This document shows, piece by piece, positions 3,462-60,434 of a DNA stretch of 64,000 nucleotides. Source of the stretch: Sediminibacterium sp. Lineage in GTDB: Bacteria > Bacteroidota > Bacteroidia > Chitinophagales > Chitinophagaceae. Below the pieces are notes generated by a model, which worked only from the letters and a program-made list of their open reading frames with translations, was not told the DNA's origin and made no database searches. The translations under genes were made by a program, and so were the position numbers. Location of the stretch: contig NZ_JAHVAA010000003.1 of assembly GCF_019264485.1 (NCBI RefSeq), forward strand, positions 2,355 to 66,354. Reading direction: 5' to 3'. Each line of letters begins with the position of its first letter. Within the stretch, counting starts at the first letter, position 1.

Positions 3462-4511
3462 TCATTGATAATCAGCTATATGTCTCAAAAAAACCATATA
3501 AACCGGAAAATGGTCGCTATAGCCACCCCTATACCGGTTTCCTTCCCAGGTACGCATAGGGTAGCCTTTAAACCTTCCGCTGTATTCGGCCAGGTAGGGA
3601 GGATTAAAAATATGATCCCTGAAAAAATGGAAACCAGCACTGGTTTTATCGAGCCAGCTCTGAGAAAGCATGACCTGATCAAATAAACCCCAGCGATCTT
3701 TATGAGCGAGGGTACCCACTCCTTTTTGCAACCAGCTACCCCAGGGATTGAATAAATCACCCGGTTTTAATTCTTCTTTTTTTGCTTTGGCCCTCAATCC
3801 CTCCCTGATGCTTTCGTCGCCGGGGTCATCATTCATATCGCCCATCACAATCAGTTTAGCTGCAGGATTTTTTGCCTGGATCGAATCAATATGTTTTCTG
3901 CATACGCCAGCCGCCGCCATACGAGCCGGATCACTTCTTTCCTGACCACCTCTTCTGCTCGGCCAGTGACTTACATATATATGTACCGTATCTGTATGCA
4001 GTAGACCTTTACAGTATAAAATGTCTCTTGTAAAATATCCATCTTTACTATTGCTCGGTAAAGCCACAAATAATTTCTGTGCTTCAATCGGAATAAAATA
4101 GGCAGGGTTATAAATCAAAGCAACATCAACACCTCTTGCATCTTTCGATGAAGCATGTACAATATGATAATTCCTTTTCTGCAATACCGGATGCTGAACA
4201 AGAAACTGAAGTACGGTATCGTTTTCAATTTCAGCTACACCTAATATGCTCAAACCATTGTCTGTATAAGTAGTACCTATTTCACTAATCACTTTAGCTA
4301 ATTTAGTTAGCTTGTCTTTAAAAATAGCAGTACCATATTTTTTCACACCAGTTGGGGTGAAATCATCATCATTGATCAATGGGTTGTCGATGGTGTCGTA
4401 CAAATTCTCAAGGTTGTAAAAACCAATCACCGCTACCTGATATCTCTTTACTTGTGACGAAGCGCTTAGAGAGAATTGTAGTACGCTCAGAATGAAGAGT
4501 AGTTTTTTCAT
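3462..4511 (-). CDS. secreted endonuclease/exonuclease/phosphatase (EEP) family protein, probable extracellular nuclease
   Basis: Signal peptide 'MKKLLFILSVLQFSLSASSQ'. EEP motifs 'GFYNLENLYD', 'SHWPSRRGG', 'IVMGDMNDDP' and 'GYSDHFPVYM'. Confidence 0.75.
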   Translation of the reverse strand: MKKLLFILSVLQFSLSASSQVKRYQVAVIGFYNLENLYDTIDNPLINDDDFTPTGVKKYGTAIFKDKLTKLAKVISEIGTTYTDNGLSILGVAEIENDTVLQFLVQHPVLQKRNYHIVHASSKDARGVDVALIYNPAYFIPIEAQKLFVALPSNSKDGYFTRDILYCKGLLHTDTVHIYVSHWPSRRGGQERSDPARMAAAGVCRKHIDSIQAKNPAAKLIVMGDMNDDPGDESIREGLRAKAKKEELKPGDLFNPWGSWLQKGVGTLAHKDRWGLFDQVMLSQSWLDKTSAGFHFFRDHIFNPPYLAEYSGRFKGYPMRTWEGNRYRGGYSDHFPVYMVFLRHIADYQ

Positions 4512-4621
4512 GATAAAAGTTGAGTATTTATTACGCTAAATACATTTTTTCATGACCGTATTTCCCGCAAAAATGATCACTGGTAGTACAATTTGTTTTT
4601 GCACTTTCTATTTTGGAAGAA

Positions 4622-7183
4622 ATGATTTGTATGATCCGGTTTATTTTTTTTGTAGCCCATTTAGCATTTTGTTTAGAAGTAGCCGCCTCTCCATGCAAAA
4701 CGGATACACTTCCATCGAAATACGATAGCAGTTTACTACAGCTTTTACTCAGTCAGGAATCGGTAGAAGCAGATGCTATATTGATGAATGAACAGGAAAG
4801 AGGTACAACATCGGCTATTGTATCGGCATTATATGGTGAGAAAGATGTATTCCTGCAAATGGCCTCATTTCAGTTCAGCGCTATGCGTTACAGGTATCGA
4901 GGGTATGATGCATCTCTTTCAGGAGCACTCATTAATGGTTTATGGTTTAACGATCTTCAACAGGGTAATCCCGCATGGTCATTATGGAATGGTCTTTCAC
5001 CAGTAATGAGAAGCAGTATTGATTTTGCGGCTCATCGTTTCCAGGATAACTGGTTGGGCGATGCAGGCATTACTACCAGTAACGATTTGCGGACACTTGC
5101 ACAACGAAAACAGTTGCAGTGGGGTTATGCAAGATCCAATCGCAGCTACACCAACAGGTATCATTTTTCTTATGCTACAGAAACCAATAAAAAAGGCTGG
5201 TCATGGGCAGCATCAGCAAATATTCGGATGGCTACAGAAGGCTACAGAACAGGATGCGAATACCAGTCAGGAGCCTACTATGCAGCCATCGATAAACAAC
5301 TCAGAAAAGCAGGCTTATTATCACTCATCATTTTTGGCTCCATCCAACAATATGGAAAACAGGCTGCGGTAACTGCACCGGTAACAGATTTATTGGGTAT
5401 CAGGTATAATCCCAATTGGGGCTACCAACAAGGCCGGAAACGAAATGCTGCATTAACGGCTCAGCACATGCCTGTTGCTATTCTTTCTTATGAATGGAAC
5501 CCTGATAACCAGTCGGCATGGATTACCAGTATTGGTGCGGTAATGGGAACAAGAACAGATACAGGATTAGATTGGTACCAGGCTGCAGATCCGCGACCGG
5601 ATTATTATCGCTACCTGCCGGCACACCAAACAGATAGTTTATTACGCAATCAGGTAACTGATATGTTGTTAGGGAATAAAGAGCTGCAACAGATTAACTG
5701 GCAACAACTATATGCCATCAATAGTAACTCTTTTGAACGGATTGATGATGTAAACGGCACAGGTGAATCCATATCAGGGAAAAGAGCACATTATTTATTG
5801 GAACAAAGAGTAATAAATACAAAAAGATGGTTGCTGAGTAGTCATTATCAGGCAAGATGGAAAAATAATATGAGCATAGCTGCAGGATTTCAATTCAGTT
5901 ACCAGCAAAATCATCAGTATAAAACAGTGTATGATTTATTGGGTGCAGATTTTCATGTTAACTGGAACCAGTTTGCAGAAAATGATTTTCCTGCAAATCA
6001 GCAGGCTCTTCAATTTGATATCGATCAACCCAATCGCATACTTCGTAAAGGCGACCGATATGGGTATGATTACCTCTCAACCGTTGTATTAACCAGCCTA
6101 TGGACACAAACAGAATATGTTACAAAGAAAATTGATTATCTACTTGGTTTTCGTTTTTCAAAAACGGAGTTTAACCGGAAAGGGTTGGTTCGTAACGGTC
6201 TTTTCCCACGACATTCAAAAGGAGCGTCGGTAGCCAGTCATTTTTTTGATCCTACGCTAAAAATAGGCCTTAGGTTCAAACTGCATGCAAAACATACGCT
6301 TGGTTTTTTAGTTCATACACAAACCAAAGCGCCTTTGTTTGACAATGTATATATCGCCCCGCGTATGCGTGATACCAGACAGGAACAAGTAATGAGTGAA
6401 ACAATATTTAGTGTTGAAATGATGTATCAGTTACTATTACACAAGTTAAAAGCCAGGATAAGTCTTTACCATACTATTTCGCGAAATGGTATGAATGTGC
6501 TTACGTTTTATCATGACGGGTATAGAAATTTTGTGAACTATGCCATTCGCAATATAAACCGCCAATACGCAGGTATTGAATCGGCCATTTCCTGGGAATT
6601 GAATGAACGATGGGAGCTGAGCCTGGCTTTTGCAAAAGGGTTACACAGCTACACGAGCAGACAGGCAGTAACGGTAAGCCTGGATAACAATGAGGCCTTG
6701 CTGGATAAAATGGAAGTGTATGCTAAAAATTTCAGAATAGGAGGTTCCCCACAACAAGTAGCTGGTACAGGTATACGCTACCGTACAGCAAAAAGTTTTT
6801 TTCTTCAGGTGAATACGAATTTTTTTAATGAGCAGTGGCTTGAGTTTAATCCTGTACGCAGAACTTATGAAGCACTCGAAGGCATTCAAAAAGGAAGCGA
6901 GCAATGGTATAAGATTATTAACCAGGAACGGCTGCCTTCCGCCATGCTCCTGAATGTGTTTATAGGAAAAGGTTTCTCTATCCGTAATGTGTATAACAAA
7001 AAACCACTAAGGTTTTTCTGTACAGCAGGTATCAATAACCTGCTGAATGAGCAACGCATAATTACAGGAGGCTATGAACAACTCCGTTTCGATCAGGAAA
7101 CAAAGGACCCGGACCGCTTCCCTCCCAAATTATTTTATGGATACGGGTTGAATTATGCCCTGTCTGTTTCACTTAGTTTTTAA
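4622..7183 (+). CDS. TonB-dependent-receptor-like outer membrane beta-barrel (atypical N-terminus)
   Basis: Signal peptide, plug-like 'YRYRGYDASLSGALINGL', a long beta-rich body, and a C-terminal aromatic 'SVSLSF'. The start is uncertain (ATG 4622 or 4631). Confidence 0.6.
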   Translation: MICMIRFIFFVAHLAFCLEVAASPCKTDTLPSKYDSSLLQLLLSQESVEADAILMNEQERGTTSAIVSALYGEKDVFLQMASFQFSAMRYRYRGYDASLSGALINGLWFNDLQQGNPAWSLWNGLSPVMRSSIDFAAHRFQDNWLGDAGITTSNDLRTLAQRKQLQWGYARSNRSYTNRYHFSYATETNKKGWSWAASANIRMATEGYRTGCEYQSGAYYAAIDKQLRKAGLLSLIIFGSIQQYGKQAAVTAPVTDLLGIRYNPNWGYQQGRKRNAALTAQHMPVAILSYEWNPDNQSAWITSIGAVMGTRTDTGLDWYQAADPRPDYYRYLPAHQTDSLLRNQVTDMLLGNKELQQINWQQLYAINSNSFERIDDVNGTGESISGKRAHYLLEQRVINTKRWLLSSHYQARWKNNMSIAAGFQFSYQQNHQYKTVYDLLGADFHVNWNQFAENDFPANQQALQFDIDQPNRILRKGDRYGYDYLSTVVLTSLWTQTEYVTKKIDYLLGFRFSKTEFNRKGLVRNGLFPRHSKGASVASHFFDPTLKIGLRFKLHAKHTLGFLVHTQTKAPLFDNVYIAPRMRDTRQEQVMSETIFSVEMMYQLLLHKLKARISLYHTISRNGMNVLTFYHDGYRNFVNYAIRNINRQYAGIESAISWELNERWELSLAFAKGLHSYTSRQAVTVSLDNNEALLDKMEVYAKNFRIGGSPQQVAGTGIRYRTAKSFFLQVNTNFFNEQWLEFNPVRRTYEALEGIQKGSEQWYKIINQERLPSAMLLNVFIGKGFSIRNVYNKKPLRFFCTAGINNLLNEQRIITGGYEQLRFDQETKDPDRFPPKLFYGYGLNYALSVSLSF

Positions 7184-7193
7184 ATAATTAACT

Positions 7194-8537
7194 ATGAAAA
7201 TAAGAAACTGTTTTTATCTGCTGCTCTCTGTGCCCCTGTTAACAGGTATAACCAATTGTCATAAGCCATTTGATGAACCGCCTGCATATCATGGACCGAT
7301 GATCAGTTCAAATACAAGTATTGCAGAACTAAAGCGGCTACACCTGCTTAATAATTTTGAAAAAATAATGGATGACCTGGTGATTGAAGGAATCGTAATA
7401 GCCAACGACCAGACCGATAATTTTTATAAGTCGATTGTTGTACAGGATAGTACGGGAGGCATCACTATCCGGTTAGATGGTTATTCTCTTTTTAATGTGT
7501 ACCCGGTTGGTAGAAAAATATTTGTGAGACTGAAAGGTTTATGGATGGGCGATTATGCAGGTATGATTCAATTGGGTGCTGGTGTTGATCGTTCTGATCC
7601 ATTATCACCACAATTGTCTTCCATACCACAGCCATTATTCGACAGGGTACTAATTAAAGGACCAATGCAACAAAAACTGGTCCCCAAAAAACTTGCTATA
7701 AGTGAATTGGCCGATAGTCTGCAAAGTACACTGATTACATTAATCAATGTAGAGTTTGCCAGTTCCGATACGGGAAAACCTTATGCAGACGCGATTAATA
7801 AACAGGCAGTGAGTCATACAATGAGAACCTGTGGCATTGGTACTGTATATGTACGAACAGGAGGTTTTGCTCGTTTTGCATCTGCATTAACAGCAAGAGG
7901 AAATGGTGAAATAACGGGCGTGTATAGTATTTTCAGAACACAGAAACAATTATTGCTCAGAGATACCAATGATGTAAAACTGGATGGGTTAAGGTGCACA
8001 CAAACCGGTCCTAAGCAAATGTTTGCAGAAGATTTTACAGGTCAGCAAACAGATAGCAGCATACACTTAACTGATTGGAAAAATATTCCTGAAACCGGCG
8101 ATCGTTATTTCCTCGCGAAAACTTCGGCAGGAAATACTTATGCAGAAATCAGTGCGTTTGCTACAAAAGAACAGTCGGTCATCAGCTGGCTCATTCTGCC
8201 TCGTATTGATCTTGAGTACTCTTCAAATGAATTACTGCGTTTTCAAACAAGGGACGGATTTGATAATGGAGCGGTATTGCAGGTATTGTATTCCACCAAT
8301 TACGACGGAGGAGCTTCGCCATGGAAGGCAAAATGGAACAAGCTGGATGCAGTTATTGCAAAAGGCGCTGTTTCAGGATATGCAAAAGATTGGGTTGCTT
8401 CGGGAGACGTGAGCTTGCATGCACTCAAAGGAAAAGTATATATCGCATTTCGTTACGAAGGAAATGACCCGCCTGCACAAGTGGCCAAACTCACTACCAC
8501 TTTCAGAATTGATAATATTCAGGTATTGGGGAATTAA
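7194..8537 (+). CDS. lipoprotein with an OB-fold-like (DUF5689-like) N-domain and a choice-of-anchor-J-like C-domain
   Basis: Signal peptide ends in Cys ('LLTGITNC'). OB-like 'VIEGIVIANDQTDNFYKSIVVQDSTGGITIRL...KIFVRLKGLWMG'. The C-terminal module is paralogous to a module in the giant protein. The gene starts 10 nt after the barrel gene. Confidence 0.55.
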   Translation: MKIRNCFYLLLSVPLLTGITNCHKPFDEPPAYHGPMISSNTSIAELKRLHLLNNFEKIMDDLVIEGIVIANDQTDNFYKSIVVQDSTGGITIRLDGYSLFNVYPVGRKIFVRLKGLWMGDYAGMIQLGAGVDRSDPLSPQLSSIPQPLFDRVLIKGPMQQKLVPKKLAISELADSLQSTLITLINVEFASSDTGKPYADAINKQAVSHTMRTCGIGTVYVRTGGFARFASALTARGNGEITGVYSIFRTQKQLLLRDTNDVKLDGLRCTQTGPKQMFAEDFTGQQTDSSIHLTDWKNIPETGDRYFLAKTSAGNTYAEISAFATKEQSVISWLILPRIDLEYSSNELLRFQTRDGFDNGAVLQVLYSTNYDGGASPWKAKWNKLDAVIAKGAVSGYAKDWVASGDVSLHALKGKVYIAFRYEGNDPPAQVAKLTTTFRIDNIQVLGN

Positions 8538-8540
8538 ATA

Positions 8541-8570
8541 AAAACGCCCCGGTAAAACGGGGCGTTTTTA
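8541..8570. terminator. bidirectional terminator between convergent genes
   Basis: acgccccg / cggggcgt stem flanked by an A-run and a T-run. Confidence 0.8.
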
Positions 8571-8592
8571 TTTAATTATAAATGGAGAACCA

Positions 8593-9909
8593 TTACCTGA
8601 TTTTGATCAGTTGTACCACTTTTCTTTCTCTTCCCTGAACCAGTTCAGCATAATAAGTGCCGGGGTTCAGGCGATGTCCTACCTGAACGGTACTGTTAGC
8701 GTTCAGATTATTTCTGCTTTCAAGAGCTCGACCTGTAACATCAATAATGCGAAGTTGAACTGGTGCTTCTGTTTTACCTGAAATTTTCAGTGTAAAGAAT
8801 GTACGGCTTGGGTTTGGCATTACTGTTACATTTAATAAACCGGTAGTTTCAGTAGCAGGTTTTTCTTCTGCTATGATCTTACTGCTTATTACAGGCTGGT
8901 TATTACTAGCAGCCACAGTATTAACAGTGCAATTGTTATTGTTCCATGTAATATTGCCACCCTTGCTTTCTACCTGTTCTGCAATAAACAATCCTGTCAT
9001 GTAAATAGCTGAAGTATTGCTGTTCCATTTTCCATGACCCTTGTTTTCAGCAGTTACTTTCAGTTTGCCGTTTGGCATATACACGTTTGCATTTACACGT
9101 ACATCTTCACCTTTCACCTGGAATTTTTCATCATCGCATTTGGTATCACCCATGTAGAAAGTTACTTTATGGTTATCAGGGTTTAGTATCACGCGATTGC
9201 CAATACTTACTTTCTTACTTACCTTAAGTTGAGTGCCGCCATTGAACCTGATATTGCTGTAGGCTGTTTTACCGCCTTCTTCAACGATCAATTCTTCAAT
9301 GCTCACTGCAGCGGCAGTAAAGCGGATGTTAGCGCCTTTATCTGCTTTAATTACTCCGAAAACAGTACCATTTAGCGTAACTGTTGCATTTTCTTTGATA
9401 GTAATGTCATTATAATTACCACTTAATGTAACCGTCGTATTCTTCTGAACAGAAGTGTTTGGAAGGTTACGCGTGTTACTGGTATTATAGAACATGGTTG
9501 GTAAACTTACTGTTGCTGAACCATAAATTTTGTTCGGGATATTGATGCCCGATCCATCGAGGTCAATTCTTGGTGCTTTTACAAATGCGCCTGGGGCAGC
9601 TACAGAACTGTTTTTGTCAAAGGAAGCCTCGCCTCGTCTGTTCATTACACCTACACTACCACCAGCAACTGTATTCGATTCACCCAGTTTTACTTCTTCA
9701 TAAGCAAGTATGGTATAATTGCTTACAAGGTTTTGTTTCTGATAGGTGAACGATGTGTTGTTGGCACTACTGCAACCTGCTGCATCGGTAATAGTGAGTG
9801 AGTAGGCCCCATCTCCATTGCTAAGACCAAGGTTCAGTTGGGAACCAGTGCCTACAACAGTATTGTTATAGAACCATTTGTAGCTATAGTTGCCACTGTT
9901 TCCAGACAA
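8593..9909 (-). CDS. C-terminal fragment of the giant surface protein: Ig-like module, beta-helix-like region, T9SS C-terminal sorting domain
   Basis: T9SS CTD 'VMPNPSRTFFTL...PGTYYAELVQG...VQLIKIR'. No signal peptide, and the only available start is TTG. It is in the same frame as 10183..15135 (see findings). Confidence 0.6.
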   Translation of the reverse strand: MSGNSGNYSYKWFYNNTVVGTGSQLNLGLSNGDGAYSLTITDAAGCSSANNTSFTYQKQNLVSNYTILAYEEVKLGESNTVAGGSVGVMNRRGEASFDKNSSVAAPGAFVKAPRIDLDGSGINIPNKIYGSATVSLPTMFYNTSNTRNLPNTSVQKNTTVTLSGNYNDITIKENATVTLNGTVFGVIKADKGANIRFTAAAVSIEELIVEEGGKTAYSNIRFNGGTQLKVSKKVSIGNRVILNPDNHKVTFYMGDTKCDDEKFQVKGEDVRVNANVYMPNGKLKVTAENKGHGKWNSNTSAIYMTGLFIAEQVESKGGNITWNNNNCTVNTVAASNNQPVISSKIIAEEKPATETTGLLNVTVMPNPSRTFFTLKISGKTEAPVQLRIIDVTGRALESRNNLNANSTVQVGHRLNPGTYYAELVQGRERKVVQLIKIR

Positions 9910-10182
9910 TACAAACTGGTTACAGAAAGCATCAGGATTGCTGCTTGTAATGATTGCTGTTGGCGGAGTTGTAATTGTTACCGTGAAACTACAGGTATTG
10001 CTGTTGCCGTTTATATCTGTAACAGTTAATGTAATATTTGATACACCATTGTTGAAAACACCACTGATATTACCTCCACTTCCACTGCGAGTAGTAGCGC
10101 CTGTTATAGTGTAAACAATGCTAGCAATTCCGCAATTATCAGAAAAGCCAATTACTGGAACTGTATATTGGTTGTTGGCCGA

Positions 10183-10185
10183 CTA
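10183..10185 (-). other. in-frame TAG interrupting one long reading frame (8593..15135)
   Basis: Plus strand reads cta, which is TAG on minus. The frame stays open on both sides. Confidence 0.9.
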
Positions 10186-13100
10186 ACAGAATGAGAGATT
10201 GGCAGCACATGCAATTTGTGGAGCCTGGTTATCTGTTACTTGTACAATTTGAGTTGCGATACGAACATTACCGTTTACATCTGTAACCGTCCAGGTAATG
10301 GTTGTTGAGCCGGTTGGGAAAGCATCTGTTAATGGCAAACCATCGTTCCTTACTCCTGTAATGGTAGCAATACCACAATTGTCGTTTGTCTCAGGTTGAG
10401 TAATGCTGATGAATGCATCGCATCTGCCAGCCTGAGCAGACATGGATATTGCATTTACAACTACAACAGGCGGCTGGTTATCAATAACAGTTACTTCTTG
10501 TTTGGCCGTATCGGTAATATTGCCATGAATATCTGTTACTGTCCAGGTAACAATCGTAGTTCCAACCGGGAACTGTGCCGGTGCGTTATTGGTAACAGAT
10601 GCAATACCACAATTGTCTGCTACTGTTGCTGAACCAAGCGAGCTAATAGTGCCATAACAAACGCCATTATCGCTTACAATACTCACTGCTGCCGGAGCCT
10701 GAATGGTTGGTTTTTGGTTGTCTGTAACCGTAATCAACTGCTCTTTAGTATTGCTATTGCCATAAGTATCAACGGCGGTCCAGGTAACTTTCGTTACGCC
10801 CACTGGGAAAGTTTGCGGTGCATCGCTGGTAATGGATACGATATTATTGAATCCGGTAACAACGGGTGTTGGTAATGTTGTTGTTATTGAGCATACACCG
10901 GCATCTGTAAAGAAGCCAAGATCGGTAACCGATATTGTTGGTTTGCTGAAATAACGCCAGTCATATTTCGTAATGATTGGGAAGTGATCTGATGTTGTAC
11001 TGGCGAAACCATTAATCAGTGTGAGTACATCCCTGTAAACTTTTGCGGAGTTCTGTACATATGCAATACTCATTTCACTCGATGTAATAACGTGATCAAT
11101 CATATCGGGGAAAGAAGCAGTAGAGCTATTGCCAGTTAAACTCAATGGTAATGTAACAGGCGTATAATTGGCCGCATCATTCAGGAATGAACTGTAAGAG
11201 CTTGCTGTGATGGGGGCCATCTCTGTGGTAATGGTTTTGTCGAAGTCATCATTCATATCGCCGAGTATAATAATCCGGCTGTTCGGGAAAGCAGCGTCTA
11301 ATGAATCTTTCAATTCATCAGCTCCTGCTTTTCTTCGCTGGTATCCTTCAATCTTGTCGGCGGTATTACCTGTATTGGCTTTGGCATGTATTACAATAAA
11401 ATCAACAACACTTGTAGCTCCGTTTAGTGTTACCTCAGCCTGCATCAGGAAGGGGAAACGACCGCTGGCCCAACTGTTATAGGCATTGCCGGAACTGGCC
11501 TGCAACAGGGGCCGGCTGCTCAGTTTCTTCACTACATCTTTATTGTAAATAAAACCAAGCTTCTGTGCGCCTGCATAATCAGGATCATTTACATCATCGG
11601 CATAGGAACCATAAGTATTTACAACATATCCATAATTTCCAGGCAAAGACTCCGCCAGATTTTTAAATCGTAAAGTATCAACAATTTCAACCAGCGCATA
11701 CACATCTGCTTTCAGCGTGTTGAGCACCGTTGTTACATTTTGTTGCTGCAGATCTTTGTTGTTCGGACCCAGTCCGGCTTCGGTACTGCCAAACCATTCC
11801 AGGTTCCAGTTTACCACTTTTAAGGTTCTGAGAGAAGTGCCCGTAAAACTCATACCCTGAATGATGGTGCCGTTATTGGTAATTAAGGCATTCACCTGTC
11901 CGGAATAATTCTGGTCGGCTGCCAAAGGTCTGAAACGCGCATAAATAGTTTTACGTGTATTGGCATCAGCAGCAGGTATGGTAACAGAAGAACCAAAACT
12001 GTTGCCATCCATACTTATTTCAAATCCGGTTGGGGCAGTTACACTGATATCGTCTGATACATTATAACCTTCAACAGAGAATGTTCTGTTGGCAGAAGTT
12101 TGTCCGTTCGCTATATAATCAAAATCAATATTTCCGCCACGTATGTCAACGCCGGGTGCTGCAGGTACTGCAGAGTTCGTAACATTAAAATCGTCGAGTG
12201 TCCATCTTGCAGCGTTTAAAACAGGTGATGAAGTGTACACAAAAGCGATATATACATTCGCTGTTTTATAAGCCGACAAATCGATCTGATCGCTGGTAGT
12301 CCATACATCAGACTCTGCTTCAGCAAAGCGCCCATTAATCTCAGTCCACTGAGCGAGGTTTGGATCACCAGCTCCTGTATAGTTCGAAGATACCATGAGT
12401 TTTAAGGAAGGACCTGCAAAACGAACACGTGAAGCAAAGCTCAACAGCGGGTAATCAAACCCTGATAAATCGAAGGAGGGCGAAATGAGCCAGTCTTCAT
12501 TAGTCTGGGCACCACTAACAAAACCATTGATCTGAACACCATTACCTGTTTTGCCAAATGTGGTACAACCCCATACCTGTGCACCGGTAACACTGTACTG
12601 TGTAAAGCCACCCGGCAGATTACTTACACAATCGTTGAAATTAAAACTGGTAGGAGGTGCGCCTGTACTAAAGCTCCATGTGTTGGCCGCAATCCCTGCA
12701 AAAGCGTTGCCACCCAAATCAACCAAAGCTCCTGCATCTATTGTTACGTAATAAGATTTAAATGCAGAGAGGTTGGTATTCAGACTTAACGTTTCTGCAG
12801 CAATGCTAACGGCAGGGTCATTAATAGTAAAGACCTGACTTGTGCCATTGGTTGCATTGTGTAATGTAATATTTCCTGTTCCGGGAACGATGGTTTCGTT
12901 GAATGTAACAGCAATTGAACCTGCTGGCGTAATACCTGTTGAACCTGTAGCAGGGTTATAACTGGTCACGAGCGGGGCTGTTACATCACCGGGTGTATAA
13001 CCTCTCACTACCAGGTTGTCGATGCTGATTTTAGGTCTTGACCCTGTTGATCCGCCACTGCCATTATGATAATAGAAACGCAATCTGGCATTAGGGTTAT

Positions 13101-15135
13101 TACTGAAATTAGACGGTAATGCAATACCTGCTACTGTTCCGTTAGTAGGAGCGTTATTGGTAATATTCAGCACAGCTGCTGCTGTTATTTCTGTGAAATT
13201 TACACCATCGGTACTGCTGTATATGCGAAGAGAACCTTTCCTGTCGCCGGTACTGTTGTTAACAGATGCCCAGTTAAACGCAATGGTTCCTGCATTTACA
13301 CCCGTGAAATCAAGTAAGAGATCAACAGCTACTGCGGTGGTATTATCAGCAGCACCTGTTGCCAGTAAAACAAGGCTGCCGCTGCCACGTTGTACACCAC
13401 CCGAAGATCCGCTACTGAAGCTATTGGTAGCTGTTGTAGTGCGAATGCCGTTTGGAATAGTTCCATTAGCATTTACAGCAACGGGGCCGAAATTAATGGC
13501 ACCATTATCAGATGCAAAGCCATTTGACCAGCTGGAAATATTATCGAAATTCTGTGTATAAGCCAGTGCAGCTTGTTGTGCCATGATTACAGGCCGTGCA
13601 GTTGTAATAAATGATTGCTGCGGACCATAAGCTGTGCCGCCTGCATTGGTTACAAATGCTTTTACGTAATAAATAGTATTGGCATTTAAACCATTCAGTG
13701 GGGCACTGAAATTATTGCCCGACAAGTTATTTGCTGTAACTACTATACCTGTTCCATTGGCAAAATTATTAGTGGTACTGTATTCAAATCCGTATGCAGA
13801 AGCAGGAGAACAACCTGCATTGGTAATATCACCAGCCAGTGTTGCGGTTGTTGATCCGATATTACTGATGAGTTGTGTATTTACAGAAGCAGTGCTGTTA
13901 ACACCATTACCAATCGCTGGGTAAGAAAGAGTGGTTCCACCTCCAGAGAGGTTAAAATTGTTTTGATACGACTGAACTACAACAGGTGTAAAACGAACAT
14001 ATACAGTAGTTGCGTTTAAAGTGCTGCCAGAATAATTGAGTTGAATGCTACTTCCAAAACTACCGTTGGCAGTTGCAGCAACACTAAATCCATCAGGTGC
14101 AGTAATGGTAACCGGACTTCCATCTAAATCAGTTCCATTAACGGTGAAAGAAGTATTGGTGGTGGTATTGATACATTGATTGCCAAAATCAAAACTTGCG
14201 GGGTTGACAATCAGTAAAGGATTGCCTGGTACTTCGCGTGTAACCTGTATACTGTAAGTTGATACAGTTATACCATCCTGTGCTGTTACCTGTATGGTAA
14301 TATTGTTTACACCTGTATTTAAAGCAATTGCCTGCGAAACATTTCCGTTTGCAACTGGTAAATTGTTTACAGTAATGGCTGCCAGTACGTCTGTTGCAAC
14401 AGGTGTAAGCGTAATACTATTCACTGCAGCAGGAACTGTGCTGCTGTAAGAAAAATTGTTAGATGTAAATGAAGGCGTTAAAGAACCAGCGCTTAGCGCA
14501 AGTGATGATAGCGATGATATATTGGTAGGAACGCTTGCACTAACAGAAAGTGTAAGATCATCAATACGCCAGTTGGTGGTATTGGCAGCTGGGGAACCAG
14601 TGCCGTTATAACCGTAAATCCTGAAGGTTGTAGCAGAAGAAGCACTAAAGGTTAAGCCTGTATGGCTTTTCAAACTCCATGAGCTGTTATTACTAATCGA
14701 TCCCGATACAATATCAGTGGTAAAATTATCCGCACTCGATCTTATGGTATAAGCCTGGGGAGCGGTACTAGTGCTCCTTGTACCAAAACTAATTCCATTC
14801 AATGTAAAAGTATAACCATTGGCAGGAGTAAGTGTAAATTCAAAATAAGCACTACTGTTGGCCGCCAGGTTTAATGCTCCCGTCCTTGCAGCCACACCTG
14901 CATTGCCACCTGCTGAAAAACCAGGGTAGGTACTGGAAACAGATACAGTTGTTATTAGTTCGTTGGTAGTACCATTGTTATTACCCCTGCTTATATCTGA
15001 AGCGGTAATATTTGTGGTAGTTAAAGAGGGAGAAGCGGTGGTAAAGTTCCATCCGATGCTTTGTGCCTGGGTAATAAATGATATTACAACAAGGCAAAAA
15101 ACGCCGAAGAAACGGCTCAGGTACAGTTTTCTCAT
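10183..15135 (-). CDS. giant secreted multidomain protein: cadherin-like/Ig-like modules, choice-of-anchor-J-like module, EEP nuclease domain (about 10960..11835), HYR repeats. It ends at a premature-looking TAG.
   Basis: Signal peptide 'MRKLYLSRFFGVFCLVVISFITQAQS' (ATG 15135). EEP motifs 'VNWNLEWFG', 'IILGDMNDDF' and 'TSDHFPIITKY'. HYR-like repeats such as 'FPVGVTKVTWTAVDTYGN' and 'FPVGTTIVTWTVTDIHGN'. Confidence 0.75.
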   Translation of the reverse strand: MRKLYLSRFFGVFCLVVISFITQAQSIGWNFTTASPSLTTTNITASDISRGNNNGTTNELITTVSVSSTYPGFSAGGNAGVAARTGALNLAANSSAYFEFTLTPANGYTFTLNGISFGTRSTSTAPQAYTIRSSADNFTTDIVSGSISNNSSWSLKSHTGLTFSASSATTFRIYGYNGTGSPAANTTNWRIDDLTLSVSASVPTNISSLSSLALSAGSLTPSFTSNNFSYSSTVPAAVNSITLTPVATDVLAAITVNNLPVANGNVSQAIALNTGVNNITIQVTAQDGITVSTYSIQVTREVPGNPLLIVNPASFDFGNQCINTTTNTSFTVNGTDLDGSPVTITAPDGFSVAATANGSFGSSIQLNYSGSTLNATTVYVRFTPVVVQSYQNNFNLSGGGTTLSYPAIGNGVNSTASVNTQLISNIGSTTATLAGDITNAGCSPASAYGFEYSTTNNFANGTGIVVTANNLSGNNFSAPLNGLNANTIYYVKAFVTNAGGTAYGPQQSFITTARPVIMAQQAALAYTQNFDNISSWSNGFASDNGAINFGPVAVNANGTIPNGIRTTTATNSFSSGSSGGVQRGSGSLVLLATGAADNTTAVAVDLLLDFTGVNAGTIAFNWASVNNSTGDRKGSLRIYSSTDGVNFTEITAAAVLNITNNAPTNGTVAGIALPSNFSNNPNARLRFYYHNGSGGSTGSRPKISIDNLVVRGYTPGDVTAPLVTSYNPATGSTGITPAGSIAVTFNETIVPGTGNITLHNATNGTSQVFTINDPAVSIAAETLSLNTNLSAFKSYYVTIDAGALVDLGGNAFAGIAANTWSFSTGAPPTSFNFNDCVSNLPGGFTQYSVTGAQVWGCTTFGKTGNGVQINGFVSGAQTNEDWLISPSFDLSGFDYPLLSFASRVRFAGPSLKLMVSSNYTGAGDPNLAQWTEINGRFAEAESDVWTTSDQIDLSAYKTANVYIAFVYTSSPVLNAARWTLDDFNVTNSAVPAAPGVDIRGGNIDFDYIANGQTSANRTFSVEGYNVSDDISVTAPTGFEISMDGNSFGSSVTIPAADANTRKTIYARFRPLAADQNYSGQVNALITNNGTIIQGMSFTGTSLRTLKVVNWNLEWFGSTEAGLGPNNKDLQQQNVTTVLNTLKADVYALVEIVDTLRFKNLAESLPGNYGYVVNTYGSYADDVNDPDYAGAQKLGFIYNKDVVKKLSSRPLLQASSGNAYNSWASGRFPFLMQAEVTLNGATSVVDFIVIHAKANTGNTADKIEGYQRRKAGADELKDSLDAAFPNSRIIILGDMNDDFDKTITTEMAPITASSYSSFLNDAANYTPVTLPLSLTGNSSTASFPDMIDHVITSSEMSIAYVQNSAKVYRDVLTLINGFASTTSDHFPIITKYDWRYFSKPTISVTDLGFFTDAGVCSITTTLPTPVVTGFNNIVSITSDAPQTFPVGVTKVTWTAVDTYGNSNTKEQLITVTDNQKPTIQAPAAVSIVSDNGVCYGTISSLGSATVADNCGIASVTNNAPAQFPVGTTIVTWTVTDIHGNITDTAKQEVTVIDNQPPVVVVNAISMSAQAGRCDAFISITQPETNDNCGIATITGVRNDGLPLTDAFPTGSTTITWTVTDVNGNVRIATQIVQVTDNQAPQIACAANLSFC

Positions 15136-15157
15136 GGATTTGAGTTTGTTTGGATAA

Positions 15158-15165
15158 CAAATGTA
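15158..15165 (-). promoter_or_regulatory. candidate Bacteroidota -7 box (TACATTTG) for the giant protein gene
   Basis: caaatgta on plus gives TACATTTG on minus, matching TAnnTTTG, 22 nt upstream of ATG 15135. No clear -33 TTG. Confidence 0.35.
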
Positions 15166-15301
15166 GCATTCCAACTGAAATGACATTTTTTCCCTGGATC
15201 AATTGATCATTAAATTTTATTTAGGTGGATAACTTGTCAACCTGTCAGTTTTCTCCCCTTTGGTACTTTCTTTGTTCATATGCGCTGAAAACAAGAGAAC
15301 C

Positions 15302-17260: not shown

Positions 17261-18283
17261 ATGCAGTATCGTATTCTGTCTAAAATAAAGGAAACAGAGA
17301 ATGCCGCTTCTTTTGTATTAGAGCCCGTAAACACTGTGTTGAAATACGAGGCAGGTCAGTTTGTTACACTCATATTTAATAACAGGAATAATGAAGAGGA
17401 AAGAAGAAGTTATTCAATCTCATCATCTTCCATACTTAACGAGCCGCTCACTATTACGGTAAAAAAAGTGGTAAATGGCGCATACTCAAGAAAACTGGTT
17501 GATACTGCTCAGCCAGGCGATATATTAAATGGTCTGGCTCCGGCGGGCTTTTTCACTTTGCCTTCTGCAACAGAACAGCTCCAGTTTGCTTTTTTTGCGG
17601 CCGGTAGTGGTATCACACCTGTATATGCGCAGATCAAAACATTGCTGGCAATTTATGATACTATCAAAATAGTACTGGTCTACAGTAACCGTTCTCAAAA
17701 AGACACATTGTTTTATAAGGAACTGCAATCAATGGCCGAAAAATATGCAGACAGGTTAGTTATTCAGTTTTTATTTAACGATGCATCGCATTATAGTCAT
17801 GCAAGATTAAGTGCATCGATGGTGGAGAATATAATACGTTCGCATTTTCCGGAAAGAATGCAACTGTTATGGGTTTATTTATGTGGTCCTTTTCAATACA
17901 TGCTTATGATTACAATGGTGTTGAGGGGAATGGGTATCAGGGATACACAAATCAAAAAGGAACAATTTACAATACACAAATCAGCAGCACCACAAAAACC
18001 TGTTGATACTGCGCTTCATATGGTTCATGCCATGCTTGGGCAATCGGCTTATTCATGGCAAGTACAATACCCCGATACCATTTTGCAGGCGGCAAAAAAG
18101 CAACATATCGACTTGCCCTATAATTGTGAGAGTGGTCAGTGTGGCGCATGTGCCGCTGTTTGTGTAAGCGGGAAAGTGTGGATGTATAAAAATGAGGTGC
18201 TGATGGAAGATGAAATTAAAACGGGCCGCTTTCTTACCTGTACAGCTTATCCTATAGAAGGAGATGTGCAGATTCGTTACTGA
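17261..18283 (+). CDS. ferredoxin-NAD(P) reductase-like flavoprotein with a C-terminal plant-type 2Fe-2S domain
   Basis: FAD motif 'RRSYSISS', NAD motif 'FFAAGSGITP', and 2Fe-2S 'CESGQCGACAAVCVSGKV...LTC'. Confidence 0.75.
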   Translation: MQYRILSKIKETENAASFVLEPVNTVLKYEAGQFVTLIFNNRNNEEERRSYSISSSSILNEPLTITVKKVVNGAYSRKLVDTAQPGDILNGLAPAGFFTLPSATEQLQFAFFAAGSGITPVYAQIKTLLAIYDTIKIVLVYSNRSQKDTLFYKELQSMAEKYADRLVIQFLFNDASHYSHARLSASMVENIIRSHFPERMQLLWVYLCGPFQYMLMITMVLRGMGIRDTQIKKEQFTIHKSAAPQKPVDTALHMVHAMLGQSAYSWQVQYPDTILQAAKKQHIDLPYNCESGQCGACAAVCVSGKVWMYKNEVLMEDEIKTGRFLTCTAYPIEGDVQIRY

Positions 18284-26140: not shown

Positions 26141-27238
26141 TTATCGCAAATACTTTTCACATTTCTTCCAGTAACTGAAAAAGGATGGGTAATAACCTGT
26201 TACTTCCGGAAACATCCAGCTTCTTGGTTCCGCTGTTCCTTTATAATGTTTGGTAAGCGGATGTTCTTTATAATAAATGCTGGATAGAGGAAATGCCTGA
26301 GAGAGCTTATCAAATGAACCTGCAAACAATTGAATATCCGGAATATTTTTCCGGGCAAGATCAATGATAAATTCAAGTACCCGTTTACTCACCGGGTACT
26401 TTTCAAAATGGGAGGGTTCCAACAGAAGTATACGAAGCCCTCTTTCGCCTGCATGCCAGGCCGGATCAAGTTGATAGCTGTTATAAACAAAAATAGTATC
26501 GTTTTTTTGATCTGCTTTATCAGGATCGGGCAACAGGGTAGATAATGATAATGAATTTTGAGCTTTGAGTATATCAGGAACTTCCATGTTTTCAAATGCA
26601 TCATATTCAACCGATAAAAAAGTAGATAGCTGTGTACTGCCTGTATACTTATTAATATTTTCCTGGTTGGCTACATATTTTTTACTGCTGAAACTACCTG
26701 CTACCCACTGCCAGCTAAGAGCATTACTGGCCAGATCGCCGTCTATTAAATGGTAATACATCCATTGGGCTGGAGCCAGCCAGTGTGCTCTTCCAATATT
26801 GCAACAGAGCATGGCAGTGTACATCCGGAGATGATTATGCATATAACCTGTTGCATACAATGTTGCTATGCCTTCATCAATAGATCTTATACCCGTTGCT
26901 CCTTTTACGACCGAATCGGGTACCTGATGATGATCAACCTGTGTTTGTGTCTGTTTCAGGTCTGTAAAAATCAAATCTCCTTTAGCCTGCCATACCCGTT
27001 GATAATATTCTCTCCAGGCTAATTCCTGTAATAGTTTTTCTGACTGATGTACTGAGTAATTCTCTAATAGCGTAGATTTTACCTGTGCTAAAGAAATAAC
27101 GCCTCTTGATAAGTAGGGAGAGAGCCTGGTTACAGCACCGGTCAGAAAATTACGCGTCTTACCATATGCAACCGGTTCTATGGCTGCTATACGTTCTCTG
27201 ATCTTTGACAGGTCTGTCGGAAAATCCATACTGTTCAT
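26141..27238 (-). CDS. photolyase/cryptochrome superfamily protein with inverted domain order (NewPHL-like)
   Basis: The FAD-binding catalytic domain is N-terminal ('WREYYQRVW', 'TGYMHNHLRMY', 'IDGDLASNALSWQWVAG'). It is followed by an alpha/beta-like C-domain of about 130 aa. Confidence 0.65.
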   Translation of the reverse strand: MNSMDFPTDLSKIRERIAAIEPVAYGKTRNFLTGAVTRLSPYLSRGVISLAQVKSTLLENYSVHQSEKLLQELAWREYYQRVWQAKGDLIFTDLKQTQTQVDHHQVPDSVVKGATGIRSIDEGIATLYATGYMHNHLRMYTAMLCCNIGRAHWLAPAQWMYYHLIDGDLASNALSWQWVAGSFSSKKYVANQENINKYTGSTQLSTFLSVEYDAFENMEVPDILKAQNSLSLSTLLPDPDKADQKNDTIFVYNSYQLDPAWHAGERGLRILLLEPSHFEKYPVSKRVLEFIIDLARKNIPDIQLFAGSFDKLSQAFPLSSIYYKEHPLTKHYKGTAEPRSWMFPEVTGYYPSFFSYWKKCEKYLR

Positions 27239-27717: not shown

Positions 27718-27726
27718 ATCTTTTGT

Positions 27727-60430: not shown

Positions 60431-60434
60431 ACGC

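What the first reader, a model, noticed from the sequence alone, without database searches (positions are those of the whole stretch)
3462..15135. Nuclease-centred outer-membrane locus: EEP nuclease, atypical TonB-dependent-like barrel, OB-fold lipoprotein and giant T9SS EEP protein
Four adjacent genes look like one functional unit. They share paralogous modules:
- EEP catalytic motif sets occur in both the small secreted enzyme ('NLENLYD', 'MGDMNDDP', 'YSDHFPV') and the giant protein ('NWNLEWFG', 'LGDMNDDF', 'TSDHFPI').
- A choice-of-anchor-J-like module occurs in both the lipoprotein C-terminus ('ISWLILPRIDL...LQVLYSTNYDGGASPWKAKW...VYIAFRYEG') and the giant protein ('DWLISPSFDL...KLMVSSNYTGAGDPNLAQW...VYIAFVYTS').

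The barrel gene is followed after 10 nt by the lipoprotein gene. That resembles a SusC/SusD pair, but the partner is an OB-fold-like protein rather than a SusD.

My inference is a capture, degradation and import system for extracellular nucleic acid or another phosphodiester polymer. I do not know of a characterised system with this composition.
Basis: partly seen in the sequence, partly recalled or inferred. Interest (0 to 1): 0.75.

Follow-up and report, generated by a model that had tools for sequence, protein, structure and literature searches.

The report
Outer-membrane DNA uptake locus, Ddb type

Summary
They are an EEP nuclease (3462-4511, -), a barrel (4622/4631-7183, +), a DUF5689 plus choice-of-anchor-J lipoprotein 10 nt downstream (7194-8537, +), and a giant T9SS EEP gene (8593-15135, -).

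The barrel matches no Pfam or NCBIfam model. Its AlphaFold model nevertheless matches TonB-dependent transporters (Foldseek E=7e-26).

The nuclease, barrel and lipoprotein form a conserved core:
- A DUF5689 gene follows the barrel in 77 of 77 related loci.
- A divergent PF19580 nuclease lies upstream in 60 of 79.
- All three proteins are homologous to a Bacteroides finegoldii TBDR-DUF5689-EEP cluster (31%, 25% and 41% identity).

This composition is already characterised:
- ddbABCDEF DNA-utilization loci (PNAS 2025).
- The Riemerella anatipestifer natural-transformation pair RA0C_RS04915/04920 (2021).

The giant gene is accessory:
- It is present in some Sediminibacterium relatives (1389-2181 aa) and absent from one at 80% barrel identity.
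- Elsewhere it is split into two T9SS cargo genes.
- Here one in-frame TAG (10183-10185, Gln in two orthologs) separates the nuclease from its T9SS sorting domain.

Verdict: a new member of a known kind, with a T9SS-coupled twist. Interest is low to moderate.

The parts
3462..4511 (-). 349-aa EEP-fold nuclease with a cleavable SPI-type signal peptide and no lipobox Cys. It is predicted to be periplasmic and resembles DdbB.
   Evidence: PF19580 Exo_endo_phos_3, E=4e-106. 41% identity over the full length to the EEP of the B. finegoldii TBDR-DUF5689-EEP cluster, which is also PF19580. Catalytic positions N33, E35, H182, D225, N227, D278, D333 and H334 are kept in 63-65 of 65 homologs. It lies divergent and upstream of the barrel in 60 of 79 related loci.
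4512..4621 (.). Divergent intergenic region between the nuclease and barrel genes. Its sequence is conserved in close relatives, so it is a presumed shared promoter or operator.
   Evidence: Conserved 'TTACGCTAAATACA...GACCGTATTTCCCGCAAAAATGAT' in L001, L003, L004 and L018. The sigma-70 and terminator scans were at chance level. Function not tested.
4622..7183 (+). Outer-membrane barrel of about 850 aa. The ATG at 4631 gives 850 aa, as in the 92%-identical relative. It is a divergent TonB-dependent-transporter fold with a short plug and no SusC-type N-terminal extension. It resembles DdbC.
   Evidence: No Pfam, NCBIfam or PDB sequence hit. AF2 model: pLDDT 84.8, pTM 0.82. Foldseek matches PqqU, YncD, PiuA, FhuA and FecA, with E down to 7e-26. 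31% identity over 835 aa (E=1e-120) to the B. finegoldii TBDR that sits next to a DUF5689 gene, and 34% (E=6e-147) to the Aureibacter CarboxypepD_reg protein. The family has 1503 clusters at 50% identity.
7194..8537 (+). 447-aa surface lipoprotein with an invariant Cys22. The N-terminal DUF5689 region is two OB-like beta units. The C-terminal region is a choice-of-anchor-J jelly-roll. It resembles DdbD and RA0C_RS04920 and is the predicted DNA-binding lid.
   Evidence: DUF5689 E=7e-61, DUF5017 weak, NF038128 E=1.5e-17; NF052645 scores 210 bits, below its 475 cutoff. AF2 pLDDT 86.2. The C-terminal domain matches gingipain adhesin, MAM and CBM folds. A DUF5689 gene lies immediately downstream of the barrel in 77 of 77 loci. 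Cys22 is invariant in 49 sequences.
10186..15135 (-). N-part (1650 aa) of the giant T9SS nuclease gene. In order it holds a signal peptide, an N-terminal module, cadherin-like (14233-14508), Big_5 (12664-12987), a choice-of-anchor-J-like module (12181-12615), the EEP nuclease domain (10984-11811), and then HYR repeats.
   Evidence: Pfam and NCBIfam hits. Weak matches to the MnuA and ExeM/NucH nuclease families. EEP motifs are kept in 8 of 8 relatives. 79% identity to the intact 2181-aa S. goheungense ortholog.
10183..10185 (-). In-frame TAG nonsense codon inside the fourth HYR repeat. It separates the nuclease from its T9SS sorting domain.
   Evidence: The same codon is Gln in S. goheungense and in P0416, which is 84% identical. 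The 1650-aa product is in the protein collection, marked as encoded by this window (P0418).
8593..10182 (-). C-part of the giant gene, in the same frame and no longer translated with the N-part. It holds the end of the HYR repeat, a beta-rich region and the T9SS type-A C-terminal sorting domain (8602-8823).
   Evidence: TIGR04183 scores 29.3 against a cutoff of 23. Por_Secre_tail scores 30.5 against 27 when the C-terminal part is scanned alone. Identity to the ortholog downstream of the stop (71-83%) is the same as upstream.

Best explanation
The locus is a Chitinophagaceae member of the Bacteroidota outer-membrane DNA capture and import systems typified by DdbBCD of Bacteroides and RA0C_RS04915/04920 of Riemerella.

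**Proposed mechanism**
1. The DUF5689 plus choice-of-anchor-J lipoprotein sits on the cell surface as the lid of the barrel and binds DNA.
2. The barrel, a divergent TonB-dependent transporter with a short plug, moves DNA fragments into the periplasm.
3. The SPI-signal PF19580 EEP nuclease, transcribed divergently, cuts them further in the periplasm.
4. Outside the cell, a T9SS-exported multidomain EEP nuclease pre-digests and tethers DNA. It plays the part that lipoprotein nucleases DdbA and DdbF play in Bacteroides.
5. In this genome a nonsense codon separates that exported nuclease from its sorting signal, so it is probably inactive. The three-gene core is intact.

The most likely physiological role is scavenging environmental DNA for phosphorus, nitrogen and nucleotides.

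**Shown here:** gene content, folds, homology, conserved gene order and intact catalytic motifs.
**Inferred:** DNA as the substrate, the location of each protein, dependence on TonB, and the physiological role.
For: **Domain content**
- PF19580, DUF5689, choice-of-anchor J, EEP, HYR and the T9SS sorting domain are all present.

**Barrel fold**
- It matches TonB-dependent transporters: AF2 pLDDT 84.8, Foldseek E=7e-26.

**Gene order**
- A DUF5689 gene follows the barrel in 77 of 77 loci. A divergent PF19580 nuclease is upstream in 60 of 79.

**Homology to annotated Bacteroidota clusters**
- The trio matches B. finegoldii TBDR-DUF5689-EEP and the Aureibacter cluster.

**Published experiments on homologous systems**
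- The ddb locus is required for DNA depletion. DdbA, DdbB and DdbF are nucleases in vitro. DdbC/DdbD are predicted to form a complex, and DdbD resembles the dsDNA-binding p202 HIN domain (PMC12478041).
- RA0C_RS04915/04920 are essential for natural transformation (PMC8459023).

**Domain fusions that tie DUF5689 to DNA**
- Flammeovirga encodes DUF5689+Endonuclease_1 and DUF5689+DUF6359+LTD proteins.

**The exported nuclease belongs with the core**
- Related genomes hold intact T9SS EEP proteins in the same slot.
- In other Chitinophagaceae, separate T9SS cargo genes for the N-part and for the EEP lie beside the DUF5689 gene.

**Active sites**
- Catalytic motifs are invariant.
Against: - Nothing was tested in this organism.
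- I could not compare directly with DdbA-F or with the Riemerella proteins because their sequences were not retrievable. The link runs through a B. finegoldii cluster and through Pfam family identity.
- The barrel lacks the N-terminal CarboxypepD_reg/SusC-type extension found in RA0C_RS04915 and in most relatives.
- No Pfam Plug hit and no clear TonB box were found.
- The OB/HIN-like fold of the DUF5689 half was not confirmed. Foldseek hits for the whole model were dominated by the C-terminal jelly-roll.
- RNA or other phosphodiester polymers are not excluded.
Confidence: 0.8

Rival explanations
1. The same machine serves natural transformation rather than feeding. The lipoprotein and barrel form the outer-membrane DNA entry gate, as in Riemerella anatipestifer. 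They deliver long DNA to a periplasmic and ComEC pathway for recombination.
For: - RA0C_RS04915/04920 have the same barrel plus DUF5689/choice-of-anchor-J architecture, with a ddbB-like nuclease next door. They are essential for transformation (PMC8459023; PMC12478041).
- The window lipoprotein aligns end to end with the Riemerella-named NCBIfam model NF052645 (E=5e-62).
- The external nuclease is inactivated here, which would spare incoming DNA.
Against: - The window holds no ComEC, DprA or ComF gene.
- To my knowledge, competence has not been reported in Chitinophagaceae.
- Related genomes keep intact exported nucleases beside the transporter, which fits degradation better.
- NF052645 scores 210 bits, below its 475 cutoff.
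- The barrel lacks the N-terminal domain of RA0C_RS04915.
- The two roles are not mutually exclusive.
Confidence: 0.2
2. It is an ordinary nutrient transporter for something other than nucleic acid, such as a SusC/SusD-like glycan system or a phosphoester or phospholipid system. On this reading the EEP proteins act as phosphatases or sphingomyelinase-like enzymes.
For: - EEP is a broad superfamily.
- PF19580 has no solved or assayed member that I could find by sequence.
- The C-terminal jelly-roll of the lipoprotein resembles carbohydrate-binding and adhesin modules.
- The N-part homologs in other loci show fn3 and purple-acid-phosphatase-N-like domains.
Against: - There is no SusD/RagB partner, no CAZyme and no SusC signature.
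- The top structural matches are classical TonB-dependent transporters.
- The only weak NCBIfam matches of the giant's EEP domain are to nuclease families, MnuA and ExeM/NucH.
- DUF5689 is fused to Endonuclease I in Flammeovirga, and Endonuclease I genes sit in the Aureibacter cluster.
- The homologous Bacteroides locus is experimentally a DNA system (PMC12478041).
Confidence: 0.07
3. The giant T9SS protein is an unrelated adhesin-type cargo gene that merely lies beside a three-gene DNA transporter, and it is decaying in this strain.
For: - It is absent from a relative with 80% barrel identity. There the DUF5689 gene is followed directly by htpG.
- Its length varies from 1389 to 2181 aa.
- It is interrupted by a stop codon here.
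- HYR and Ig-like repeats are typical of adhesins.
- Only 17 of 53 loci have an N-part homolog and 7 of 53 have a giant-type EEP.
Against: - It carries an EEP nuclease domain with intact catalytic motifs.
- It shares the choice-of-anchor-J module with the transporter's lipoprotein.
- Its two halves occur as separate T9SS genes directly next to DUF5689 genes in other Chitinophagaceae genera.
- It keeps the same slot in at least five Sediminibacterium-like genomes: L001, L006, L018, L089 and L090.
Confidence: 0.2

Closest known systems
ddbABCDEF DNA-utilization locus of Bacteroides thetaiotaomicron (Sharan et al., PNAS 2025, PMC12478041)
   Same: - A TonB-dependent-type barrel is followed directly by a DUF5689 lipoprotein (DdbC/DdbD).
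- An SPI-signal nuclease lies beside them (DdbB).
- Additional extracellular nucleases and an extra surface protein sit in the same locus.
- The logic resembles a polysaccharide-utilization locus.
- The window trio is 31%, 25% and 41% identical to a B. finegoldii TBDR-DUF5689-PF19580 cluster.
   Different: - The extracellular nuclease is T9SS cargo, not an SPII lipoprotein. It is fused to binding modules and HYR repeats in one protein of about 2180 aa, and it is interrupted here.
- The barrel lacks the N-terminal extension.
- The nuclease gene is divergent rather than co-directional.
- The host is an environmental Chitinophagaceae, not a gut Bacteroidales.
- Direct identity to DdbA-F was not measured.
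Riemerella anatipestifer natural-transformation genes RA0C_RS04915 and RA0C_RS04920 (Huang et al. 2021, PMC8459023)
   Same: - Adjacent barrel and lipoprotein.
- The lipoprotein has the same DUF5689 + DUF5017/choice-of-anchor-J architecture.
- A ddbB-like nuclease is the neighbour, according to PMC12478041.
   Different: - RA0C_RS04915 carries a CarboxypepD_reg N-terminal domain that is missing here.
- The window lipoprotein scores below the cutoff of the Riemerella-named NCBIfam subfamily (210 against 475 bits).
- The role shown in Riemerella is transformation. No competence genes lie in this window.
SusC/SusD polysaccharide-utilization pairs
   Same: - A barrel gene is followed within 10 nt by a surface lipoprotein gene.
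- Degradative enzymes are encoded alongside.
- Relatives of the barrel carry a SusC-type N-terminal extension (9hfj, E=9e-5).
   Different: - The partner is DUF5689, not a SusD/RagB TPR protein.
- There are no CAZymes.
- The barrel hits no SusC model, and its closest structures are classical TonB-dependent transporters.
ExeM/NucH and MnuA extracellular or membrane EEP nucleases
   Same: - The EEP domain of the giant protein gives weak matches to both NCBIfam models (E=6e-5 and 1e-5).
- The choice-of-anchor-J-like module of the lipoprotein also matches a region annotated as an ExeM/NucH family endonuclease in Ponticoccus.
   Different: - Scores are far below the family cutoffs.
- Export is by T9SS.
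- The surrounding domain set (cadherin-like, Big_5, HYR) differs.

Membership tests
Ddb-type DNA-utilization locus (DdbBCD core) | DUF5689 lipoprotein encoded directly downstream of the barrel | tested here: met
   DUF5689 E=7e-61. The gap is 10 nt. The arrangement holds in 77 of 77 related loci.
Ddb-type DNA-utilization locus (DdbBCD core) | Barrel homologous to the DdbC-type transporter of Bacteroides | tested here: inconclusive
   31% identity over 835 aa, E=1e-120, to the B. finegoldii TBDR that sits next to a DUF5689 gene. DdbC itself (WP_008762511.1) could not be retrieved for comparison.
Ddb-type DNA-utilization locus (DdbBCD core) | SPI-signal nuclease encoded beside the transporter (DdbB-like) | tested here: met
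   PF19580 with a signal peptide and no lipobox. 41% identity to the B. finegoldii cluster EEP. Present in 60 of 79 loci.
Ddb-type DNA-utilization locus (DdbBCD core) | Extracellular nucleases that are SPII lipoproteins (DdbA, DdbF) | tested here: not met
   The extracellular nuclease candidate has an SPI-type signal and a T9SS sorting domain instead. It is interrupted by TAG.
Ddb-type DNA-utilization locus (DdbBCD core) | Locus required for depletion of exogenous DNA; nuclease activity in vitro | not testable with these tools
   This needs genetics and enzyme assays.
Riemerella RA0C_RS04915/04920 transformation pair | Lipoprotein with DUF5689 + DUF5017/choice-of-anchor J | tested here: met
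   The architecture is as described in PMC8459023.
Riemerella RA0C_RS04915/04920 transformation pair | Barrel with N-terminal CarboxypepD_reg domain | tested here: not met
   The window barrel starts about 65-70 residues later than the B. finegoldii and Aureibacter homologs. The extension in relatives matches the SusC N-terminal extension.
Riemerella RA0C_RS04915/04920 transformation pair | Membership of NCBIfam NF052645 (M949_1556 family lipoprotein) | tested here: not met
   End-to-end match at E=5e-62, but 210 bits against a cutoff of 475. It is homologous but outside the subfamily.
Riemerella RA0C_RS04915/04920 transformation pair | Required for natural transformation | not testable with these tools
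   The window holds no ComEC, DprA or ComF gene. The rest of the genome was not seen.
TonB-dependent transporter | Large beta-barrel with an N-terminal plug | tested here: met
   AF2 pLDDT 84.8, pTM 0.82. Foldseek hits PqqU, YncD, FhuA and FecA with E from 7e-26 to 1e-19 and TM-score up to 0.72, normalised by target length. The plug segment is short, about residues 72-160.
TonB-dependent transporter | Pfam Plug / TonB_dep_Rec or NCBIfam TBDR models | tested here: not met
   No hit for the whole protein (E limit 0.01) or for the N-terminal 191 aa scanned alone (E limit 10). A few relatives carry PF00593.
TonB-dependent transporter | TonB box | tested here: inconclusive
   Residues 16-71 are disordered. 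The only candidate is a weakly conserved 'DAILMNE' / 'P.I..NE' stretch.
SusC/SusD PUL | SusD/RagB partner and glycan-active enzymes | tested here: not met
   The four genes give no SusD or CAZyme hit.
EEP (DNase I/ExoIII-fold) nuclease | Catalytic N-x-E, H, G-D-x-N, D and S-D-H motifs | tested here: met
   Both proteins carry them. They are kept in 63-65 of 65 small-enzyme homologs and 8 of 8 giant-type homologs. Assignment to a nuclease clade, rather than a phosphatase clade, rests on context and on weak MnuA and ExeM/NucH matches.
T9SS type-A cargo | C-terminal sorting domain on the same polypeptide as the functional domains | tested here: not met
   The sorting domain is present (TIGR04183, 29.3 against 23). 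It lies downstream of the in-frame TAG. Orthologs have it on one intact protein.

The most novel reading that the evidence does not exclude
The barrel and lipoprotein pair is the outer-membrane entry gate for natural transformation in Chitinophagaceae, a family in which competence has not been reported to my knowledge. On this reading, the short plug and the missing N-terminal extension are adaptations of a TonB-dependent-type barrel for passing long DNA. Loss of the exported nuclease in this strain would then spare incoming DNA.
Probability: 0.12. Interest if true: 0.6.

Novelty: new member of a known kind. Interest (0 to 1): 0.3.

Why it matters
- **Reach of the system.** The Ddb/Riemerella type of DNA uptake system extends well beyond gut Bacteroidales and Flavobacteriaceae into freshwater and soil Chitinophagales. 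At least 600 genome loci match, and the barrel family has about 1500 clusters at 50% identity.
- **Annotation gap.** Pfam and NCBIfam do not recognise this barrel, so pipelines call it hypothetical.
- **T9SS coupling.** In bacteria that have T9SS, the extracellular nuclease role seems to be taken by T9SS cargo. In Sediminibacterium that cargo is fused into one giant protein. This gives a testable picture of how environmental Bacteroidota consume extracellular DNA, which is a large phosphorus and nitrogen pool in water, sludge and soil.

Tried and rejected
- **PDB sequence searches.** The barrel and both EEP domains gave no hits. The lipoprotein gave only insignificant ones (E about 1).
- **Fold of the DUF5689 half.** Foldseek of the whole lipoprotein model returned only matches to the C-terminal jelly-roll.
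- **Pfam on subsequences.** Lenient scans of the barrel N-terminus, the giant N-terminus and the 540-720 region gave nothing useful.
- **Extra jelly-roll modules in the giant protein.** Pairwise BLAST gave only E of about 0.02-0.05, so I do not claim them.
- **Exact-sequence look-ups.** Neither the window barrel nor the 1650-aa product is on record. The only other contig of the same species is 1.9 kb and stops short of the TAG, so the stop codon could not be checked in an independent assembly.
- **Promoter and terminator scan.** Results were at chance level.
- **Competence genes.** A search of the window found none.
- **SusC/SusD glycan reading.** Rejected, because there is no SusD and no CAZyme.
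- **Recoding of the TAG.** I considered a programmed readthrough. I set it aside because two orthologs have plain CAG (Gln) at that codon, and I saw no evidence for recoding.

Full report
**1. What is in the sequence**

The ORF scan finds these genes:
- A 349-aa gene on the minus strand at 3462-4511.
- An ORF of about 850 aa on the plus strand ending at 7183. The listed TTG start is 4613, with ATGs at 4622 and 4631. The 4631 start gives 850 aa, the same as the 92%-identical relative P0001.
- A 447-aa gene at 7194-8537, which starts 10 nt after the barrel stop codon.
- On the minus strand, two ORFs in the same frame, 10183-15186 and 8593-9909.

Translating across the gap shows one continuous reading frame from 15135 to 8593. 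A single TAG at 10183-10185 breaks it, inside an HYR repeat ('...AANLSFC*SANNQYTVP...'). The 'giant T9SS EEP protein' is therefore, as encoded, two pieces:
- A 1650-aa N-part that carries the nuclease.
- An untranslated 529-codon C-part that carries the T9SS sorting domain.

The protein collection holds the 1650-aa product as a protein this window encodes (P0418).

**2. Domain content**

| Gene | Result |
|---|---|
| Small enzyme | PF19580 Exo_endo_phos_3, E=4e-106 |
| Lipoprotein | DUF5689 (E=7e-61) plus choice-of-anchor J (NF038128, E=1.5e-17) |
| Lipoprotein | End-to-end alignment with NF052645 'M949_1556 family lipoprotein', but 210 bits against a 475 cutoff |
| Giant N-part | Cadherin-like, Big_5, choice-of-anchor-J-like stretch (residues 841-985), EEP domain (PF03372, 29.7 bits against 24.5), HYR repeats |
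| Giant N-part | Weak hits to the MnuA and ExeM/NucH nuclease families |
| Giant C-part | T9SS type-A sorting domain: TIGR04183 29.3 against 23; Por_Secre_tail 30.5 against 27 when scanned alone |
| Barrel | No Pfam or NCBIfam model for the whole protein (E limit 0.01) or its N-terminal 191 residues scanned alone (E limit 10); no PDB sequence |

The choice-of-anchor-J module really is shared between the lipoprotein and the giant protein (33% identity over 105 aa, E=1e-11). The two EEP domains share only the GDMNDD motif (E=1e-4). They are superfamily relatives, not recent paralogs.

Both EEP domains carry the full set of catalytic motifs. These are essentially invariant in 65 homologs of the small enzyme and 8 homologs of the giant-type domain.

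**3. The barrel**

An AlphaFold2 model built on 59 homologs is confident (pLDDT 84.8, pTM 0.82).
- Residues 16-71 are disordered.
- A short N-terminal globular segment (about 72-160) precedes the long beta-strands.

Foldseek against the PDB returns only TonB-dependent transporters: PqqU at 7e-26, then YncD, PiuA, Fiu, FhuA, FecA and OprC, with TM-scores up to 0.72 when normalised by target length.

The family is large. It has 1503 clusters at 50% identity with E<=1e-3 and 593 with E<=1e-30.

Many members are 70-80 residues longer at the N-terminus. That extension matches the SusC N-terminal (CarboxypepD_reg-like) domain (9hfj, E=9e-5). The window protein lacks it.

A TonB box could not be identified with confidence. 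The only candidate is a weakly conserved 'DAILMNE' stretch.

**4. The lipoprotein**

The model is confident (pLDDT 86.2).
- The N-terminal half shows two beta-rich units, about residues 63-132 and 165-255.
- The C-terminal half is a jelly-roll (274-446).

Foldseek on the whole model returned only relatives of the C-terminal domain: gingipain cleaved-adhesin domains, MAM, Eph ligand-binding domains and CBMs. I could not test the OB/HIN-like nature of the DUF5689 half.

Cys22 is invariant in 49 homologs, which fits lipidation.

**5. Conservation of the neighbourhood**

Among close relatives:
- Sediminibacterium goheungense has the same order: L9, S18, S6, EEP, barrel, DUF5689, an intact 2181-aa giant, HtpG.
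- Two other Sediminibacterium-like contigs have intact T9SS EEP proteins of 1692 and 1389 aa in the same slot.
- A relative with 80% barrel identity lacks the giant gene entirely. There the DUF5689 gene is followed directly by htpG.

I also scanned one genome per species, selecting loci only by similarity to the barrel. More than 600 loci matched, and the best 80 were examined together with three non-duplicate loci fetched earlier.

| Feature | Loci with it / loci with enough flanking sequence |
|---|---|
| DUF5689 gene directly after the barrel | 77 / 77 |
| Divergent PF19580 gene directly upstream | 60 / 79 |
| Homolog of the giant N-part downstream | 17 / 53 |
| Giant-type EEP downstream | 7 / 53 |
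| Both fused in one protein | 3 (all Sediminibacterium) |

In other Chitinophagaceae the two halves are separate genes. One is a 960-1380-aa protein and the other a 415-446-aa EEP. Each has an SPI signal and a C-terminal tail that looks like a T9SS sorting domain. That domain was confirmed by Pfam for one of the stand-alone EEPs.

So the conserved unit is three genes. The exported nuclease and its binding protein are frequent but optional additions. The Sediminibacterium giant is a fusion of the two.

**6. The stop codon**

The TAG aligns with Gln in S. goheungense (79% identical overall) and in P0416 (84% identical). This is a single CAG-to-TAG change.

Identity to the ortholog is the same downstream of the stop (71-83%) as upstream, and there are no frameshifts. 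The change is therefore either recent or an assembly error.

I could not check it in an independent assembly. If it is real, the nuclease part is made without its sorting domain and should not be exported by T9SS.

**7. Comparison with what is known**

A full-text search for DUF5689 found two directly relevant papers.

- **Huang et al. 2021 (PMC8459023).** The adjacent R. anatipestifer genes RA0C_RS04915 and RA0C_RS04920 are essential for natural transformation. RA0C_RS04915 is an outer-membrane barrel with a CarboxypepD_reg domain. RA0C_RS04920 is a choice-of-anchor-J protein with DUF5689 and DUF5017. The authors proposed that the pair binds DNA and carries it across the outer membrane.
- **Sharan et al. 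2025 (PMC12478041).** The B. thetaiotaomicron locus ddbABCDEF is required for depletion of exogenous DNA and for production of uracil and xanthine from it, both in culture and in mice. Its parts are:
  - nucleases DdbA, DdbB and DdbF, all active in vitro;
  - the TonB-dependent transporter DdbC;
  - the DUF5689 protein DdbD, which is predicted to dock on DdbC and to resemble the dsDNA-binding HIN domain of p202.

  That paper draws the SusC/SusD analogy and the link to the Riemerella genes explicitly.

I could not retrieve the Ddb or Riemerella sequences. A tblastn search of annotated plasmid and chromid records gave Bacteroidota clusters of the same make-up:
- B. finegoldii: TBDR, DUF5689, PF19580 EEP.
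- Aureibacter: CarboxypepD_reg barrel, two DUF5689 proteins, Endonuclease I, two EEPs.
- Flammeovirga: EEP, TBDR, a DUF5689+DUF6359+LTD protein, and a DUF5689+Endonuclease I fusion.

Identity of the window proteins to these clusters:

| Window protein | Match | Identity | E-value |
|---|---|---|---|
| Barrel | B. finegoldii TBDR | 31% over 835 aa | 1e-120 |
| Barrel | Aureibacter CarboxypepD_reg protein | 34% over 825 aa | 6e-147 |
| Lipoprotein | B. finegoldii DUF5689 | 25% over 351 aa | 3e-24 |
| Small EEP | B. finegoldii EEP | 41% over the full length | 1e-86 |

The fusions of DUF5689 to Endonuclease I and to a lamin-tail domain are independent hints that DUF5689 works on DNA.

**8. Mechanism and rivals**

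The best-supported reading has four steps:
1. The surface DUF5689/choice-of-anchor-J lipoprotein captures DNA at the mouth of the barrel.
2. The barrel imports fragments.
3. The SPI-signal PF19580 nuclease degrades them in the periplasm.
4. Where it is intact, a T9SS-exported EEP nuclease with binding modules pre-digests DNA outside the cell.

Shown here are the folds, the homology, the gene order and the intact active sites. Substrate, protein locations, TonB dependence and physiological role are inferred.

Whether the system feeds the cell or supplies DNA for transformation cannot be decided from the window. No ComEC, DprA or ComF gene lies within the 64 kb. The frequent exported nucleases favour degradation.

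A glycan or other non-nucleic-acid role is unlikely, because there is no SusD or CAZyme and every contextual link is to nucleases.

**9. Verdict**

The functional interpretation is right.

The system is not uncharacterised. It is a new member, in Chitinophagaceae, of the Ddb/Riemerella kind of outer-membrane DNA uptake system. Its modest new features are:
- The extracellular nuclease is T9SS cargo rather than a lipoprotein.
- The nuclease and its binding protein are fused into one giant protein in Sediminibacterium.
- The barrel subfamily has no N-terminal extension and is invisible to current Pfam and NCBIfam models.

Interest is 0.3.

Noticed in passing
window 41412-42716 (-): NamZ/DUF1343 protein (PF07075, E=4e-74). 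A gene of this Pfam family, RA0C_RS09020, was one of the genes required for natural transformation in R. anatipestifer (PMC8459023). It lies 33 kb from the locus and is probably a housekeeping muramidase.
   Followed up: no
window 60378-63335 (+): A 985-aa protein that combines a BlaR1-type M56 peptidase region, an N-acetylmuramoyl-L-alanine amidase domain and a C-terminal TonB_C domain. This is an unusual fusion.
   Followed up: no
window 17261-18283 (+): A FAD/NAD-binding reductase with a 2Fe-2S domain sits between htpG and recJ in the window. The three related contigs whose neighbourhood was listed (L004, L089, L090) lack it. It looks like a strain-specific insertion.
   Followed up: partly
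window 18277-19983 (-): RecJ single-strand DNA exonuclease lies two genes from the locus. The htpG-recJ-polyprenyl synthase-OmpA order is conserved in relatives. Nothing links it functionally to the locus.
   Followed up: partly
window 48432-49607 (-): Nucleoside:H+ symporter (PF03825, E=7e-118). It could take up the end products of DNA breakdown, but it is 40 kb away and next to unrelated oxidoreductases.
   Followed up: no
window 4512-4621: The intergenic region between the divergent nuclease and barrel genes keeps a long conserved stretch in relatives with 66-92% barrel identity ('TTACGCTAAATACA...GACCGTATTTCCCGCAAAAATGAT'). It may be a shared promoter or operator.
   Followed up: partly
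L014, L017, L019, L021, L022, L029, L033, L035, L046 (between barrel and DUF5689 genes): Nine related loci have a spacer of about 640-790 nt between the barrel and the DUF5689 gene, instead of a few bases. They may hold an extra small gene.
   Followed up: no
L091 3628-9061 (Flammeovirga kamogawensis plasmid p1): Two DUF5689 fusion proteins sit next to an EEP gene and a TBDR gene. One is DUF5689+DUF6359+lamin-tail domain (1041 aa). The other is DUF5689+Endonuclease I (731 aa).
   Followed up: partly
window 26141-29226 (-): A cluster of a photolyase-related DPRP protein, a second FAD_binding_7 protein and a flavin reductase.
   Followed up: no
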